Below, piece after piece: positions 2,917 to 8,164 of a stretch of DNA of 21,745 bases. Source of the stretch: a virus (Duplodnaviria; Heunggongvirae; Uroviricota; Caudoviricetes); the IMG/VR virus record IMGVR_UViG_3300029102_000023. One strand, 5' to 3'. Within the stretch, counting starts at the first letter, position 1. Each line of letters begins with the position of its first letter. The notes beneath the pieces were generated by a model. That model was not told where the DNA came from. It saw only the letters and a list, made by a program, of their open reading frames with translations, and searched no databases. Made by a program: the position numbers and the translations under genes.

Positions 2917-3049
2917 TTTTTGGGACTCCTGGCTGATTAAGTATGTCGATAAGGCGTTTCCATCCGTCACGTAATTTACGGGTGATTCGTTCAAGTAAAG
3001 ATTCGGAAGGGCAGCCAGCAACAGGCCACCCTGCAATGGCATATTGCAT
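2885..3049 (-). CDS. cIII: CIII protease inhibitor (FtsH/HflB inhibitor), 54 aa
   Basis: Hand translation of minus strand from ATG at 3049: [54 protein letters not shown], stop TAA at 2885-2887; below the ORF-track length threshold. Confidence 0.85.
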   Translation of the reverse strand: MQYAIAGWPVAGCPSESLLERITRKLRDGWKRLIDILNQPGVPKNGSNNYGYPD

Positions 3050-3121
3050 GGTGTGCTCCTTATTTATACATAACGAAAAACGCCTCGAGTGAAGCGTAAT
3101 TGGTATGCGGTAACGCCGCGC

Positions 3122-4086: not shown

Positions 4087-4668
4087 ATGAACAACTCATG
4101 GTGGCAGGAACTAATGCATTTTTTCCTGCAAGGAATGACACTTAAACAGTTGATTCATATGCTAATCATCCTGATCATATTGATTATTGTTATGCCGGTA
4201 AGCGTAAAAGAATGGATAAACCTGCATAGTCCAGAAATCCTTCCTCATTACTGGATGTATTACATCCTGTTGTTTTGCGTTAGCTATGTGCTTAACGGCG
4301 TTGTTAATTCCGCTTATCACGCTGTGACTGAAAGAATTGAGGTATTCGCTGCTCAGAAGCGCAAATCTAAAGAAGAAAAATATGTGCAAGATTTGTTTGA
4401 TTCGTTAACTCTTGGAGAAAGAGCGTATTTGGCATTCGCTGTAGCCGCTAATAACCAGCTACAAACGGAAAAGGGCGCTCATGAATCAATTTCATTGCTC
4501 AAAAAAGGACTCCTCGTTCGAAGGCCTCCTGCTGTTGGATATCCTGATACCGACCGTTTCGTTATCCCTGAAAGCTATAGACATGAGTGCTACATTAGGT
4601 TTGCCGGGAAGGCAGACAGCCTTATGGATGAACTTATCGCTCAGGATAAGCATGGCAAAAACAAGTAA
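4087..4668 (+). CDS. sieB: Superinfection exclusion protein B (membrane protein)
   Basis: 193 aa with hydrophobic N-terminal segments (LIHMLIILIILIIVMPV, YWMYYILLFCVSYVLNGVV); matches lambda SieB; antisense to the pL operon and convergent with N as in lambda. Confidence 0.9.
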   Translation: MNNSWWQELMHFFLQGMTLKQLIHMLIILIILIIVMPVSVKEWINLHSPEILPHYWMYYILLFCVSYVLNGVVNSAYHAVTERIEVFAAQKRKSKEEKYVQDLFDSLTLGERAYLAFAVAANNQLQTEKGAHESISLLKKGLLVRRPPAVGYPDTDRFVIPESYRHECYIRFAGKADSLMDELIAQDKHGKNK

Positions 4669-4684
4669 TTAGCAAATGAATTTA

Positions 4685-4957
4685 TCATCTCGCCGTCAGT
4701 TGTTTTGATTTCCGGTAGCCTGCCGCGTAAAGAGCTACGTTCGGAAGACAAGTTGAACCTTCATATTTTCTGGTCAACGTTGTCAGAGTTATCACTTCTG
4801 CTCTCATTGCTGGTTTGAGCTTGCATTGCAAGACCACTCGTGAAGGGGTTGGCCTGTGTAGCTTGTCGGAGCTGATCGCCTCCTGACTTTGCAGATTTGC
4901 GCGACGAGCTCTACGGCGAGAAGCTGCGGTGCCTTTAAATTCTGTTTTTCTGGACAT
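4685..4957 (-). CDS. N: N-type transcription antiterminator (non-lambda specificity), 90 aa
   Basis: Position directly downstream of the nutL/pL candidates; arginine-rich motif near the N-terminus (KGTAASRRRARRANLQ); strong GGGAGG Shine-Dalgarno 5 nt before ATG at 4957. The track ORF extends to 5029 but that start lacks an RBS. Confidence 0.6.
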   Translation of the reverse strand: MSRKTEFKGTAASRRRARRANLQSQEAISSDKLHRPTPSRVVLQCKLKPAMRAEVITLTTLTRKYEGSTCLPNVALYAAGYRKSKQLTAR

Positions 4958-5055
4958 GGATTCCTCCCGAATAAACTTTGGCGATGCAATCTCGAAGCTC
5001 CTCCTGAGACGGTTGCTTCGGCATTGCATCCCACAGCTTATGTGGTTGGGTGATC

Positions 5056-5100
5056 TGGCTTTTCAGCCACGTAGTCGAGAGTCGACGTTGTTTAAAGAGC
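5056..5100 (-). promoter_or_regulatory. nutL candidate (boxA GCTCTTTAA plus boxB hairpin TGGCTGAAAAGCCA) on the leftward transcript
   Basis: Minus-strand reading gives GCTCTTTAA...cgactacgt-GGCTGAAAAGCC, nearly parallel to the nutR candidate at 7737-7782 (GCTCTTTG...cctacgt-CGCTGAAAAGCG). Both lie immediately downstream of the divergent early promoters. Confidence 0.5.
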
Positions 5101-5148
5101 CTGCCAGTCTGTTCCATTTGGCTTCCAGCGTCCTGCTGACGGTTAAAT

Positions 5149-5190
5149 AGTACGATATGTACTTTACAAGATCAATACAATTTGTTGTAA
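5149..5190. promoter_or_regulatory. OL/pL region candidate: dyad symmetries AGTACGATATGTACT and TTACAA-N15-TTGTAA
   Basis: Imperfect palindromes upstream of nutL/N; the AGTAC...GTACT motif recurs in the cI-cro intergenic region (AAGTACATATTGTAT). Exact operator boundaries and the -35/-10 elements are not resolved. Confidence 0.35.
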
Positions 5191-5361: not shown

Positions 5362-5388
5362 CAAAGAAAACCCGGCGCTGAGGCCGGG
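5362..5388 (-). terminator. Rho-independent terminator downstream of the cI-geneA-geneB operon
   Basis: Inverted repeat CCCGGC(5371-5376)/GCCGGG(5383-5388) with 6-nt loop; A-rich run 5364-5370 on plus strand gives T-run TTTTCTT after the hairpin on the minus strand; 6 nt beyond the gene B stop. Confidence 0.6.
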
Positions 5389-5393
5389 TTGTA

Positions 5394-6146
5394 TTATGCT
5401 GCAAGTCTCTTAACCCAAGTCTCTCTTTTGGAGAATGGTAGAACTTGGCTTGATTCATGGAAGAGTAAGGAGAGTTGTTGCATTTGATCACCAATTGCTT
5501 CGCTGTCTATAACAACAAATCTGTTGTTATACTCCTCACTTGAAGCTTTAAGATCAATTAGTTTCCCAAGCAATGAGTAAGCACTATTCCAGCTTCCTCC
5601 GTGTTTCACGCTTGATGTAAAAACGTATTTAGGTATGTCGGTTTTTATTGTTACAGGGACGGTAATTTGATGTCCACTCAAGCCATATACGTTTTCACGA
5701 AGAGAAAGTGCGTCTCTAAGCTCTGTGTGATATAGATAATCAATAACCATACTTTCAAACTTTTCAGCTTGAACTGGCTGATACCAGTCTAACGACAAAG
5801 TTGATGCGAGTATACCAGCTCTAATTATGTTCGATGTAATCGCACCGACATCCTTTTCTGTTGCCCAAGCAATGATTTCTCCTCGAGCATTGAGTTCTGC
5901 GCCTTCTTTAAGCAGTAATTGTCGTATCTCATCAAGTCGTTTTTTGGTAAGCGAGATCCCTCTTGCCTCCATATTCATTAAGGCATCGCATCTGTCACTA
6001 ACTAAATACCTACCATTGACTTCACGGATAAAGGCACCGACATGCTCTCCATCATCACAGTAAGTGAATGGACTGATAATTCTCAAGGTCTTGCCTATTG
6101 GATGGCATTCGAAACCTAGTTGTGAGATCACTGTTGAGCACATCAT
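5394..6146 (-). CDS. Unknown protein B, 250 aa (second gene of the two-gene cassette in the rexAB-equivalent position)
   Basis: Long intact ORF; ATG at 6146 overlaps the gene A stop (ATGA), indicating translational coupling; no obvious transmembrane segments; family not recognised. Confidence 0.7.
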   Translation of the reverse strand: MMCSTVISQLGFECHPIGKTLRIISPFTYCDDGEHVGAFIREVNGRYLVSDRCDALMNMEARGISLTKKRLDEIRQLLLKEGAELNARGEIIAWATEKDVGAITSNIIRAGILASTLSLDWYQPVQAEKFESMVIDYLYHTELRDALSLRENVYGLSGHQITVPVTIKTDIPKYVFTSSVKHGGSWNSAYSLLGKLIDLKASSEEYNNRFVVIDSEAIGDQMQQLSLLFHESSQVLPFSKRETWVKRLAA

Positions 6147-6700
6147 ATTCCAAACCCCATTTGCCCCGACTCATCTTCAAGCGGTAAAGGTATTCTCCCA
6201 GAGTAAGTTATGTTCAGATGTTTACAGAAGTAATTCCAATACCCTACCAGGTCATCTGGGTTTATGTCATCTTCGATTGGAAACGCTATTCTATCACTAT
6301 AGTATCCAGCTTCTTCATAGTATACATGGTAGTGAGCACCGTAAATGATATCTTGGTACTTCGGATGATCGACCTTGTAACTATTCGTGTGTTTGTCAAA
6401 GTGATAGGTATCTACCGCGAAAACCCTCTTGTTATGATAGAAAGCAATAATATTTATTTTAGGGTAAGAAATCGGGTCATCAGGTTCTGAATCCTGATCT
6501 GGTTTCCATTTCAGTTCAAACTTTAGCCCTTGTATAGGTATACAATCCTCATCCAAGGGGATGATATGGGCTTGTAGCCACATATCAGAGCGACTTGGTT
6601 TCTGTTTCCATTTAACGCCAGAAAAGTTAACTATTTTTTTACAATAAAGTACTTTATCAACTTCTACTTGGCTTGGCTGATAATCATCTATTTTTGCCAA
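6143..6700 (-). CDS. Unknown protein A, 185 aa (first gene of the cassette downstream of cI)
   Basis: Intact ORF 39 nt downstream of the cI stop on the same strand; acidic, Tyr/His-rich, no hydrophobic segments; the track start at 6700 is a TTG codon (next in-frame ATG is at codon 40), so the true start is uncertain. Confidence 0.65.
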   Translation of the reverse strand: MAKIDDYQPSQVEVDKVLYCKKIVNFSGVKWKQKPSRSDMWLQAHIIPLDEDCIPIQGLKFELKWKPDQDSEPDDPISYPKINIIAFYHNKRVFAVDTYHFDKHTNSYKVDHPKYQDIIYGAHYHVYYEEAGYYSDRIAFPIEDDINPDDLVGYWNYFCKHLNITYSGRIPLPLEDESGQMGFGI

Positions 6701-6739: not shown

Positions 6740-7399
6740 TCACCCAAACGTCTCTTCAGGCCATTGGCTGGCGATAACTTTCCCCACAACGGAACAACTC
6801 TCATTGCATGGGATCATTGGGTATTGTGGGTTTAGTGGCTGTAGAAACACCTGACCGCTATCCCTGATCAGTTTCTTGAAGGTAAATTCATCACCACCAA
6901 GTCTGGCTATGCAGAAATCGCCGGGCTCAACAGCTTGCTCAGGGTCAACCAGAATTAACATCCCGTCAGGAAAGCTGGGTTTGGAACCTGTTGGTGCGGT
7001 CATTGAGTTACCTTCAACCTCAAGCCAGAATGCAGAGTCACTGGCTTTTTTGGTTGTGCTTACCAATCTCTCCGCATCGCCTTTGGTAAAGGTTCTGAGT
7101 TCTGGAGAGAACATCCCAGCCTGAACATGAGAAAAAACAGGGTACTCATATTGTTTTTTAACTGGGGCCGATGAGTATTCGCCAACAGGTGAAAATGTCC
7201 CGTCGTGGTTGAATGATATGTTATCAATACCAAGGTATTTAAACACCACACCAATATCACTAAGAGATGGATGACGAGATCCGCGCAACCAGTGTCCAAT
7301 CCCACCCTGCGTCATACCTAGCTCTTCGGCTAACTTCTCTTGAGTTATGCCGAGCTCTTTCATTCTGGATCTAGCCAGTTCATACCATTTCATTTTCAT
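6740..7399 (-). CDS. cI: CI-type prophage repressor (N-terminal HTH, C-terminal LexA/S24-like autocleavage domain)
   Basis: HTH-like segment [23 protein letters not shown]; C-terminal domain with GNSM serine motif and downstream FKKL lysine; divergent from cro. Track ORF begins at a TTG (7441); ATG at 7399 or 7393 more likely, the latter with AAGGA 7 nt upstream. Confidence 0.9.
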
Positions 7400-7440
7400 G
7401 TCCTTATTATTACGCTCTGTACTGGAACCATCCATGCACA

Positions 7441-7510
7441 ATGTGTATTTTTACTTGTATTCGCAAAGTACATATTGTATTTTTTTATTCGTGTTTACTA
7501 TGGAGGGCAT
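7441..7510. promoter_or_regulatory. OR/pR/pRM region candidate between cI and cro
   Basis: Contains dyads TACTTgtattcgcAAAGTA (7452-7470) and AAGTACATATTGTAT (7466-7480), -35/-10-like hexamers (TTGTAT, TACTAT) and a GGAGGG Shine-Dalgarno before cro. Confidence 0.4.
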
Positions 7511-7726
7511 ATGAGCAACCTACGAAAATATCGAGAGTCACTGAATATCTCTCAAACAACACTTGCTAAGGCAGTTGGATGCACACAGGGAGCTATCGGA
7601 CATTGGGAATCTGGTCGTCGCTTCCCAGACCTTAAAACATGCCGTGCTCTTGTTGCGTGCCTAAACAAGTTAGGCGCAAAAGTCAGTCTTGATGACGTGT
7701 TCCCGCCGGAACACAAAGCCGCTTAA
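7511..7726 (+). CDS. cro: Cro-type HTH transcriptional regulator, 71 aa
   Basis: MSNLRKYRESLNISQTTLAKAVGCTQGAIGHWESGRRFPDLKTCRALVACLNKLGAKVSLDDVF; GGAGGG Shine-Dalgarno upstream; divergent from cI. The track's longer N-terminal extension overlaps the cI start and is rejected. Confidence 0.8.
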   Translation: MSNLRKYRESLNISQTTLAKAVGCTQGAIGHWESGRRFPDLKTCRALVACLNKLGAKVSLDDVFPPEHKAA

Positions 7727-7736
7727 TAAGCGGATC

Positions 7737-7782
7737 CGCTCTTTGTAACAACGGACATTCGTCCTACGTCGCTGAAAAGCGA
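7737..7782 (+). promoter_or_regulatory. nutR candidate (boxA CGCTCTTTG, boxB hairpin TCGCTGAAAAGCGA)
   Basis: Immediately after the cro stop; boxA-like CGCTCTTTG at 7737-7745 and stem-loop at 7769-7782; mirrors the nutL candidate. Confidence 0.55.
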
Positions 7783-7867
7783 GTTCCAAGATATCTGACC
7801 AACTAAGGCCATATGCGTTTCCACGCATACCTTTCAACTAACTATTCACTATTGGAAATCTTAAGAA

Positions 7868-8164
7868 ATGGAAAGAACAAGTTACAGCAAACTATCACAG
7901 CGTGACGTTGATCGCGCAGAAACAGATTTACTTATCAATCTGTCAGCTATTACCCAGCGCGGTCTGGCAAAGATGATTGGCTGTCATGAATCGAAGATAA
8001 GCAGAACGGACTGGAGATTTATTGCTTCGGTCTTGTGTGCTTTCGGAATGGCATCAGACATCAGTCCGATTAGCAGGGCTTTTAAGTATGCGCTTGATGG
8101 ACTCACCAATAAAAAACGCCCGGCGGCAACCGAGCGTTCTGAACAAATCCAGATGGAATTCTGA
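7868..8164 (+). CDS. cII: CII-type transcriptional activator, 98 aa (mosaic: divergent N-terminus, lambda-identical C-terminus)
   Basis: C-terminal 19 residues TNKKRPAATERSEQIQMEF equal the lambda CII C-terminus as I recall it; N-terminal HTH portion differs from lambda. Confidence 0.85.
   Translation: MERTSYSKLSQRDVDRAETDLLINLSAITQRGLAKMIGCHESKISRTDWRFIASVLCAFGMASDISPISRAFKYALDGLTNKKRPAATERSEQIQMEF

What the first reader, a model, noticed from the sequence alone, without database searches (positions are those of the whole stretch)
5056..5100. Paired nutL/nutR candidates with non-lambda boxB (short stem, GAAA-type loop)
Two independently located sites share the pattern boxA GCTCTTT(A/G), a spacer ending in CTACGT, then a boxB-like hairpin (C/G)GCTGAAAAGC(G/C): nutL on the minus strand at 5056-5100 and nutR on the plus strand at 7737-7782. 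Each is immediately downstream of its early promoter and upstream of N or cII. The boxB differs from lambda (GCCCTGAA(G/A)AAGGGC), implying a distinct N-boxB recognition specificity that matches the heterologous N at 4685-4957.
Basis: seen in the sequence. Interest (0 to 1): 0.45.

Follow-up and report, generated by a model that had tools for sequence, protein, structure and literature searches.

The report
Known nut sites with tetraloop boxB
The two sites are real N-utilisation (nut) sites of a common E. coli lambdoid prophage, already annotated in VT2-Sakai and epsilon34; the only unusual point is that their boxB hairpin carries a plain four-base GNRA loop, not the five-base loop of lambda or P22.

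Summary
The composite motif (boxA GCTCTTT, spacer ending in CTACGT, hairpin NGCTGAAAAGCN') occurs exactly twice in the window, at 5100-5056(-) and 7737-7782(+), with 0 expected by chance.

- nutL lies about 40 nt downstream of pL and about 100 nt upstream of a 90-aa N protein (Pfam N_peptide, E=1.5e-32).
- nutR lies between cro and cII.
- Both sites are 100% identical to DNA annotated 'putative N-utilization leftward/rightward' in VT2-Sakai.
- The 14-nt nutR hairpin is the one annotated 'putative NutR - boxB' in Salmonella phage epsilon34.

Each site has an rrn-consensus boxA, a short spacer hairpin, the motif CUACG, and a boxB with a 5-bp stem closed by U-A and a GAAA tetraloop.

Across 148 related loci, this N type always has GAAA at both nut sites. 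H-19B-type N always has GACAA. This holds across about 39 immunity cassettes. Relatives carry GCAA, which is also GNRA.

The module sits in 759 of 5426 complete E. coli genomes. It is ordinary and already annotated. The tetraloop N-boxB class has not, as far as I could find, been studied biochemically.

The parts
5147..5175 (-). pL promoter (-35 TTGATC at 5175-5170, 17-nt spacer, -10 TACTAT at 5152-5147). The transcript start is near 5140, by homology to the lambda pL leader ATCAGCAGGACGC.
   Evidence: Maps without indels onto the VT2-Sakai feature 'putative major leftward promoter'. The leader motif is shared with lambda and H-19B. The simple consensus scan did not call it.
5093..5100 (-). 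nutL boxA, GCUCUUUA, followed by AACAAC. It matches the rrn boxA consensus.
   Evidence: The rrn boxA UGCUCUUUA and lambda boxA CGCUCUUA are quoted in PMC2724277.
5074..5086 (-). nutL spacer hairpin, GUCGA-CUC-UCGAC
   Evidence: Folds and gives -3.5 kcal/mol alone. Four of its 5 pairs show compensatory changes across 23 distinct sites.
5056..5069 (-). nutL boxB, UGGCU-GAAA-AGCCA (loop 5064-5061), preceded by the conserved CUACG at 5074-5070
4967..5045 (-). Long imperfect hairpin in the N leader, between boxB and the N ribosome-binding site
   Evidence: The MFE of the 191-nt leader is -68.3 kcal/mol, z=-3.67. It is conserved in POCJ13. A role such as an RNase III site is inferred from lambda only.
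4685..4957 (-). N antiterminator, 90 aa. N-terminal arginine-rich motif: MSRKTEFKGTAASRRRARRANLQSQ.
   Evidence: PF25694 E=1.5e-32. 98.9% identical to VT2-Sakai N. 42% identical to H-19B N.
7455..7483 (+). pR promoter (-35 TTGTAT, -10 TATTTT)
   Evidence: Maps onto the VT2-Sakai feature 'putative major rightward promoter'.
7511..7726 (+). cro
   Evidence: HTH_3 E=4e-12. Corresponds to the cro annotated in VT2-Sakai.
7738..7745 (+). nutR boxA, GCUCUUUG, followed by UAACAAC
7753..7764 (+). nutR spacer hairpin, GGAC-AUUC-GUCC. Identical to the one in H-19B nutR.
   Evidence: [quoted passage not shown]
7769..7782 (+). nutR boxB, UCGCU-GAAA-AGCGA (loop 7774-7777), preceded by CUACG at 7764-7768
   Evidence: These 14 nt are identical to the feature 'putative NutR - boxB' of epsilon34.
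7812..7837 (+). tR1-like terminator region (hairpin UAUGCG-UUUCCA-CGCAUA) between nutR and cII
   Evidence: Identical to the VT2-Sakai feature 'putative rho dependent terminator for pR transcript'. Folds.
7868..8164 (+). cII
   Evidence: PF05269 E=7e-34

Best explanation
These are the nutL and nutR sites of a VT2-Sakai-type lambdoid prophage.

Proposed mechanism (every binding and antitermination step below is inferred from lambda and H-19B, not shown here):
1. After induction, transcripts from pL and pR carry a single-stranded boxA (GCUCUUUA/G) that can recruit NusB-NusE.
2. A short spacer hairpin folds away 12-13 nt. This leaves about 10-11 single-stranded spacer bases, including the invariant CUACG, which is a likely NusA contact.
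3. The boxB hairpin follows. Its GAAA loop is a true GNRA tetraloop closed by a U-A pair.
4. The arginine-rich N-terminus of the 90-aa N protein binds boxB.
5. The rest of N, with NusA and NusG, modifies RNA polymerase so that it reads through tR1 and the downstream terminators.

Shown here: the sequence, the positions, the folds, the covariation, the homology, and the N/boxB co-inheritance.
For: Statistics and position:
- The motif occurs exactly twice, with 0 expected.
- The sites hold the canonical positions relative to pL, N, cro, tR1 and cII.

Identity and homology to known sites:
- They are 100% identical to the VT2-Sakai 'putative N-utilization' features.
- The nutR hairpin is identical to the epsilon34 'putative NutR - boxB'.
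- nutR is homologous to H-19B nutR, which has been used in vivo and in vitro for N antitermination.

Structure:
- 96% of cells pair, and 0 of 500 shuffles reach the observed covariation score.
- The spacer helix has 4 of 5 pairs with double changes. The variable boxB pair is G-C, C-G or A-U.
- All 23 distinct sites with a boxA context have a complementary variable pair.
- Loop-agnostic scans find only GAAA, GCAA and GACAA in a boxA context.

Coupling of N type and loop:
- 73/73 Sakai-type N loci carry GAAA at both sites. 75/75 H-19B-type N loci carry GACAA at both.
- This spans about 39 immunity-region clusters, 6 of which occur with both N types.
- epsilon34 N has an H-19B-like body but a tetraloop-class ARM, and it has GAAA boxBs.

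General mechanism: PMC8632103, PMC2724277, PMC12027372.
Against: - There is no direct experiment for this N/nut pair in anything I could read.
- In longer contexts the MFE fold pairs boxA with the 3' half of boxB instead of forming boxB. The z-scores of the short nut segments are modest (-0.9 to -2.6).
- The GCU/AGC core of boxB was fixed by my search patterns, so its invariance carries no information.
- N and nutL are only about 100 nt apart, so their concordance is partly plain linkage. Only the nutR concordance is informative.
Confidence: 0.9

Rival explanations
1. The N-binding hairpin is the first (spacer) hairpin, and the GAAA hairpin is an accessory or terminator-related element.
For: The VT2-Sakai nut features end inside the GAAA loop (5061 and 7776). 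The original annotators therefore did not delimit the second hairpin as boxB. The spacer hairpin is structurally conserved.
Against: The stem and loop sequences of the spacer hairpin differ between nutL and nutR of the same phage (GUCGA-CUC against GGAC-AUUC), and across phages, while one N must serve both sites. The GAAA/GCAA hairpin is the shared element and tracks the N ARM type. The same spacer hairpin is present in H-19B nutR, which works with a different N. From memory, Neely & Friedman 2000 found that this dyad in H-19B can be deleted.
Confidence: 0.04
2. The sites work as rrn-like, boxA-driven antiterminators or as Rho-loading (rut) elements without needing N. The boxB similarity would then be incidental.
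For: The boxA matches the rrn consensus GCUCUUUA-ACAA better than lambda's does. In H-19B, Rho footprints on the nutR spacer.
Against: The loop type is perfectly concordant with the N ARM class at nutR across mosaic immunity regions. That concordance is hard to explain without an N-boxB interaction. epsilon34 and H-19B nutL lack a recognisable boxA yet keep boxB.
Confidence: 0.03
3. The sites are real nut sites, but the specificity is not distinct. Sakai-type N and H-19B/P22-type N cross-react on GAAA and GACAA loops, and the concordance reflects co-ancestry rather than selection.
For: Both loops present a GNRA fold. POCJ13 tolerates GCAA at nutL and GAAA at nutR with a single N. The relatives sampled are close: at least 98% N identity within each set.
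Against: 148/148 loci are concordant despite about 39 immunity cassettes, 6 of them shared by both N classes. The flanks of nutR differ by only four substitutions between the classes, while the loop always switches with N. In P22 the looped-out C contacts the N peptide (PMC12550061).
Confidence: 0.2

Closest known systems
VT2-Sakai (Sp5) 'putative N-utilization leftward/rightward' features, GenBank AP000422.1
   Same: The DNA is 100% identical over boxA, the spacer hairpin and boxB at both sites. N is 98.9% identical. The gene order is the same: pL-nutL-N and cro-nutR-tR1-cII.
   Different: The public features stop inside the boxB loop (equivalent to 5101-5061 and 7737-7776) and do not mark boxA or boxB. 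They are labelled putative. The window belongs to a non-Stx relative; it is 100% identical to phages ev207, ev017 and PhiR57_1.
Salmonella phage epsilon34 'putative NutR - boxB' (NC_011976; Villafane et al. 2008, PMC2629481)
   Same: The annotated 14-nt boxB, UCGCUGAAAAGCGA, is identical to window 7769-7782. Its nutL also has a GAAA tetraloop. The N ARM is of the same class (GSAAGRRRERRA). The authors predicted a novel boxB specificity.
   Different: epsilon34 N is 120 aa with an H-19B-like body. Neither epsilon34 nut site has a recognisable consensus boxA.
H-19B nutR/nutL with H-19B N (also the HK97 and 933W class)
   Same: The architecture is the same: boxA region, spacer hairpin, CUACG, then boxB. 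The nutR spacer hairpin GGACAUUCGUCC is identical, and the flanks up to cII differ by only four substitutions. N is 42% identical, with the same C-terminal 21 aa. H-19B nutR supports N antitermination in vivo and in vitro.
   Different: The boxB loop is GACAA, a P22-type pentaloop, not GAAA. H-19B has CGCUAUUU in place of a consensus boxA at nutR and no evident boxA at nutL. From memory (Neely & Friedman 2000, not readable here), H-19B N does not need NusB, S10 or boxA.
Lambda nutL/nutR
   Same: The positions are the same, boxA lies 5' of boxB, the stem is 5 bp and closed by U-A, and the loop presents a GNRA fold.
   Different: Lambda has a GNRNA pentaloop (GAAGA/GAAAA) with one base extruded, an 8-9 nt unstructured spacer and boxA CGCUCUUA. 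Its N ARM (MDAQTRRRERRAEKQAQW) is unrelated, and lambda N has no detectable sequence similarity here.
phi21 / VT1-Sakai nut sites
   Same: N is 90 aa with the same C-terminal 21 aa and a partly similar ARM (GTAKSRYKARRAEL against GTAASRRRARRANL). The boxA is GCUCUUU.
   Different: The boxB has a 6-7 bp stem and a CUAACC-type hexaloop, not GNRA in sequence.

Membership tests
Lambdoid N-utilisation (nut) site | One copy in the pL transcript upstream of N, and one in the pR transcript between cro and the first terminator/cII | tested here: met
   nutL lies about 40 nt after the pL start and about 100 nt before the N ATG. nutR lies 11 nt after the cro stop and 30 nt before the tR1-like hairpin. 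The promoters were placed by homology to annotated ones, not mapped experimentally.
Lambdoid N-utilisation (nut) site | A boxA element (consensus GCUCUUUA) 5' of boxB | tested here: met
   GCUCUUUA at 5100-5093 and GCUCUUUG at 7738-7745. The consensus is taken from PMC2724277.
Lambdoid N-utilisation (nut) site | A boxB stem-loop shared by nutL and nutR, with pairing maintained by compensatory change | tested here: met
   The G-C pair in nutL is C-G in nutR and A-U in a relative. All 23 distinct sites pair at this position. The hairpins fold at -6.3 and -5.7 kcal/mol.
Lambdoid N-utilisation (nut) site | [quoted passage not shown] | tested here: met
   PF25694 N_peptide, E=1.5e-32, covering residues 1-90. 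The ARM is SRRRARR.
Lambdoid N-utilisation (nut) site | N binds boxB RNA, and N-dependent read-through of downstream terminators occurs | not testable with these tools
   Only indirect support is available: N-ARM class and loop type are concordant in 148/148 loci.
Lambda-type boxB (GNRNA pentaloop) | A five-base loop GNRNA with one base extruded, closed by U-A | tested here: not met
   The loop is four bases (GAAA). The only register that keeps the stem is U-A closing plus GAAA. The U-A closing pair is present.
P22/H-19B-type boxB (GACAA pentaloop) | A GACAA loop with a looped-out C | tested here: not met
   Relative to H-19B, the window sites lack the C. No locus with Sakai-type N carries GACAA at its nut sites.
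H-19B-type nut architecture | A dyad-symmetric hairpin within the boxA-boxB spacer, whose structure rather than sequence is conserved | tested here: met
   Five different stems were seen (GUCGA, GGAC, GGUGA, GGUGAA, GGCC), all paired. Four of 5 pairs show double changes. The functional meaning rests on H-19B genetics recalled from memory.

The most novel reading that the evidence does not exclude
The VT2-Sakai/epsilon34 class may be a fourth N-boxB recognition mode that has not been characterised biochemically. In it, an arginine-rich helix reads a genuine four-base GNRA tetraloop (GAAA or GCAA) closed by U-A, with no extruded loop base.

Relative to the H-19B/P22 class, the specificity switch would come down to a one-base loop indel plus a few ARM substitutions (G-N-S-R-S to G-T/S-A-A-S/G).

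If so, the extruded base is not a general requirement for assembling an N antitermination complex. That base contacts the peptide in P22. From memory, it is needed for NusA-dependent assembly in lambda.
Probability: 0.4. Interest if true: 0.4.

Novelty: already known. Interest (0 to 1): 0.2.

Why it matters
For annotation, the value is practical. This N/nut module is in about 14% of complete E. coli genomes, including Nissle 1917 and the type strain. There, PGAP calls N a hypothetical protein and no nut sites are marked. The full anatomy given here could be propagated: boxA, spacer hairpin, CUACG, and a 14-nt tetraloop boxB.

For mechanism, the module offers a natural comparison with H-19B. 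The two nutR regions differ by only four substitutions apart from one loop base, and each is served by a different N ARM. That would allow a clean test of how N peptides tell a GNRA tetraloop from a GNRA-like pentaloop, and of whether an extruded loop base matters for assembling the complex. It does not change the known picture of N antitermination.

Tried and rejected
- Rfam, evalue mode on the whole window: no nut or boxB family matched. The only hit was the cIII thermoregulator.
- PDB sequence search with N: no hits even at E=10, so the N-peptide structures could not be aligned by this tool.
- The simple promoter scan did not call pL or pR. The promoters were placed by homology instead.
- Genome-contig scan with an N alignment: only 6 loci were returned and they were of little use.
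- Literature: Neely & Friedman 2000 and Chattopadhyay 1995 are not held. A sequence-string search and the VT2-Sakai/VT2-Sa and nutL/nutR/Stx2 searches found no paper on this boxB.
- An alternative fold pairs boxA GCUCUUU with the boxB 3' half AAAAGC. It appears in MFE folds. The extra flanking base does not co-vary across the 23 sites (read from the alignment), so I do not propose it as functional.
- A pentaloop register for GCUGAAAAGC was considered and rejected, because it would need a C-C mismatch.
- Extra 'GAAA/GACA/GAAGA' hits more than 4.7 kb from N in some loci lie at 4.7-5.7 kb from nutL in flanks unrelated to nut sites (no boxA, spacer hairpin or CUACGU), and were discarded as chance matches.
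- A few loci lack a detectable nutR (for example L068). No cII-like motif was found in them either, and they were not pursued.

Full report
**What is in the sequence**

Read on the minus strand, 5101-5056 is G-GCUCUUUA-AACAAC-GUCGACUCUCGAC-UACG-UGGCUGAAAAGCCA. Read on the plus strand, 7737-7782 is C-GCUCUUUG-UAACAAC-GGACAUUCGUCC-UACG-UCGCUGAAAAGCGA. It matched none of 100 dinucleotide-preserving shuffles. The 18-nt core also has no other match with up to two mismatches.

**Genomic context**

The window is a lambdoid prophage early region. The genes identified are:
- SieB, 4087-4668(+)
- N, 4685-4957(-), Pfam N_peptide PF25694, E=1.5e-32, covering the full length
- two genes in the rex position, 5394-6700(-)
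- a cI repressor, 6740-7441(-), with HTH and Peptidase_S24 domains
- cro, 7511-7726(+)
- cII, 7868-8164(+), Phage_CII, E=7e-34
- the lambda-like replication genes O, P and ren

The 801 bp around nutL are 100% identical to Escherichia phages ev207, ev017 and PhiR57_1, and 93% identical to VT2-Sakai and many Stx phages. The N plus nutL module is present at 80% coverage or more in 759 of 5426 complete E. coli genomes, including Nissle 1917 and ATCC 11775. In those records N is annotated as 'hypothetical protein', and no NCBIfam model matches it.

**Already annotated elsewhere**

GenBank AP000422.1 (VT2-Sakai) carries the features 'putative N-utilization leftward' and 'putative N-utilization rightward'. 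Their sequences occur verbatim in the window, at 5101-5061(-) and 7737-7776(+). Both features start at boxA but stop inside the boxB loop, so they do not delimit the hairpin.

The VT2-Sakai pL and pR promoter features map without indels to 5175-5147(-) and 7455-7483(+). Its 'putative rho dependent terminator for pR transcript' is identical to 7812-7837.

In Salmonella phage epsilon34 the feature 'putative NutR - boxB' is the 14-mer UCGCUGAAAAGCGA, identical to 7769-7782. The epsilon34 paper predicted a novel boxB specificity for its N (PMC2629481).

**Anatomy**

Each site has four parts.
1. A boxA. It matches the rrn consensus UGCUCUUUA (followed by ACAA) better than lambda's CGCUCUUA does (PMC2724277).
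2. A short spacer hairpin: GUCGA-CUC-UCGAC in nutL and GGAC-AUUC-GUCC in nutR.
3. The single-stranded motif CUACG.
4. A boxB whose only consistent register is a 5-bp stem (U-A, G-C or C-G, G-C, C-G, U-A) closing a four-base GAAA loop (-6.3 and -5.7 kcal/mol alone).

With the spacer hairpin folded, about 10-11 unpaired bases separate boxA from boxB. This is close to the 8-9 nt spacers of lambda.

**Comparison with characterised nut sites**

H-19B nutR reads CGCUAUUU-UCACAAU-GGACAUUCGUCC-UACG-UCGCUGACAAAGCGA. From the spacer hairpin to the cII start it differs from the window by four substitutions and by one extra C in the loop. H-19B nutL has the same GACAA loop.

H-19B nutR has been used extensively for N antitermination in vivo and in vitro. 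It is described as having two hairpins, with N and NusA protecting the spacer and boxB (PMC3526286 and PMC4499122).

GACAA is the P22 boxB pentaloop, in which the C is looped out and touches the N peptide (PMC12550061). Lambda N prefers a GNRNA pentaloop with one base extruded and a U-A closing pair (PMC12027372).

The window's boxB is therefore the same GNRA fold with no inserted base. VT1-Sakai, whose N is phi21-like, uses CUAACC-type loops instead.

**Covariation**

Two pattern scans of IMG/VR and two scans with N proteins yielded 23 distinct tetraloop-class sites.
- On their alignment, 96% of cells pair. None of 500 shuffles reaches the observed covariation score, and slid-partner controls collapse to 22-45% paired.
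- The spacer helix has compensatory double changes at 4 of 5 pairs, with five different stems.
- In boxB only one pair was free of my search pattern. It is G-C, C-G or A-U, and it is complementary in 23 of 23 distinct sites with a boxA context. The GCU/AGC core was fixed by the pattern, so its invariance tells nothing.
- With the loop left free at 2 positions or at 4-6 nt, the only loops seen in a boxA context are GAAA, GCAA and GACAA. That is two GNRA tetraloops and the P22-type pentaloop.

**Coupling of N type and loop type**

Among 160 loci retrieved with the two N proteins, 148 contain both nut sites.
- All 73 loci with Sakai-type N have GAAA at nutL and at nutR.
- All 75 loci with H-19B-type N have GACAA at both.

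nutL is only about 100 nt from N, so that half of the result is largely linkage. nutR is 1.25-3.5 kb away, across the most mosaic part of the genome. The intervening DNA falls into about 39 clusters, and 6 of them occur with both N types.

More divergent N proteins point the same way:
- POCJ13 has ARM GTAASRRRAHRAEL, with GCAA at nutL and GAAA at nutR.
- MSRRTAFNGSSAARRRERRAHL goes with GCAA at both sites.
- epsilon34 N has an H-19B-like 120-aa body but the ARM GSAAGRRRERRAAL, and GAAA at both sites.

The loop class therefore follows the ARM, not the rest of N. The C-terminal 21 residues (CLPNVALYAAGYRKSKQLTAR) are shared by the Sakai, H-19B and phi21-like classes.

**Mechanism**

By analogy with lambda, N's ARM binds boxB, the NusA KH domains also contact boxB, NusB-NusE bind the linear boxA, and N threads into RNA polymerase (PMC8632103). 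I conclude with about 0.9 confidence that these are the functional nut sites of this phage.

The steps that are shown are position, fold, covariation, homology and N/loop co-inheritance. The steps that are inferred are N binding, Nus factor use and read-through of tR1.

From memory (Neely & Friedman 2000, Mol Microbiol 38:1074; not readable here), the H-19B spacer dyad acts as a structural 'reducer' whose sequence is unimportant, and H-19B N does not need boxA, NusB or S10. The covariation fits the first point. The consensus boxA here suggests that this class may differ on the second point, but that is untested.

**Caveats**

- In longer contexts the MFE fold pairs boxA with the 3' half of boxB. 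Their complementarity follows from the boxA consensus and the A-rich loop, and the flanking base does not co-vary. I treat this as a folding artefact, although co-transcriptional competition cannot be excluded.
- Cross-reactivity between the tetraloop and pentaloop classes is not excluded (rival at 0.2).

**Verdict**

The feature is an ordinary, widespread and already annotated element. The one point with some residual scientific interest is that this class uses a true GNRA tetraloop as boxB. I found no biochemical study of it in the library searched.

Noticed in passing
window 5394-6146(-) and 6143-6700(-): Two overlapping genes sit between pL and cI, in the position of lambda rexAB. One has a DUF1828 domain (phrog_1960); the other is DUF6978-like (phrog_2017). 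They match the two components of the PADLOC candidate defence system PDC-M24: PDC-M24B at E=4.7e-10 and PDC-M24A at E=4.8e-4. This may be a prophage-encoded exclusion or defence cassette expressed from pRM.
   Followed up: partly
window 4967-5045(-): The N leader between boxB and the N ribosome-binding site forms a long imperfect hairpin. The whole 191-nt leader has z=-3.67. It is conserved with changes in POCJ13. It resembles the RNase III-processed N leader of lambda (recalled from memory), which would imply translational control of N.
   Followed up: partly
window 3004-3062(-): Full-length match to Rfam RF01804, the lambda cIII thermoregulator RNA (88.5 bits, E=1e-20), overlapping the cIII start.
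   Followed up: no
window 4685-4747(-) (N residues 70-90): The C-terminal 21 aa of N (CLPNVALYAAGYRKSKQLTAR) are near-identical in N proteins of three boxB classes: VT2-Sakai, H-19B/HK97/933W and phi21-like VT1-Sakai. The N-terminal ARMs differ. N looks like a modular protein whose RNA-binding head is swapped.
   Followed up: partly
window 4685-5029(-): A longer in-frame ORF of 114 aa starts at 5029, inside the leader hairpin. It is what some records (Stx1 phage AP005153) annotate as N. The 90-aa form starting at 4957 has a GGGAGG ribosome-binding site and aligns from residue 1 to the Pfam model. In RefSeq E. coli genomes the gene is called 'hypothetical protein'.
   Followed up: partly
window 5093-5101 with 5056-5063(-); 7737-7745 with 7775-7782(+): boxA (GCUCUUU) is complementary to the 3' half of boxB (AAAAGC). 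An alternative fold enclosing the spacer hairpin therefore competes with boxB in MFE predictions. The flanking base does not co-vary across 23 sites (read).
   Followed up: partly
window 5369-5390(-): A strong intrinsic-terminator-like hairpin followed by a T run lies just upstream of the pL operators. It corresponds to the VT2-Sakai feature 'putative rho independent terminator for pRM transcript'.
   Followed up: no
L166 (Shigella phage POCJ13) 4365-4378(+) and 2963-2976(-): One phage carries two different GNRA tetraloops: GCAA at nutL and GAAA at nutR, served by one N. This suggests that the second loop base is not read specifically.
   Followed up: partly
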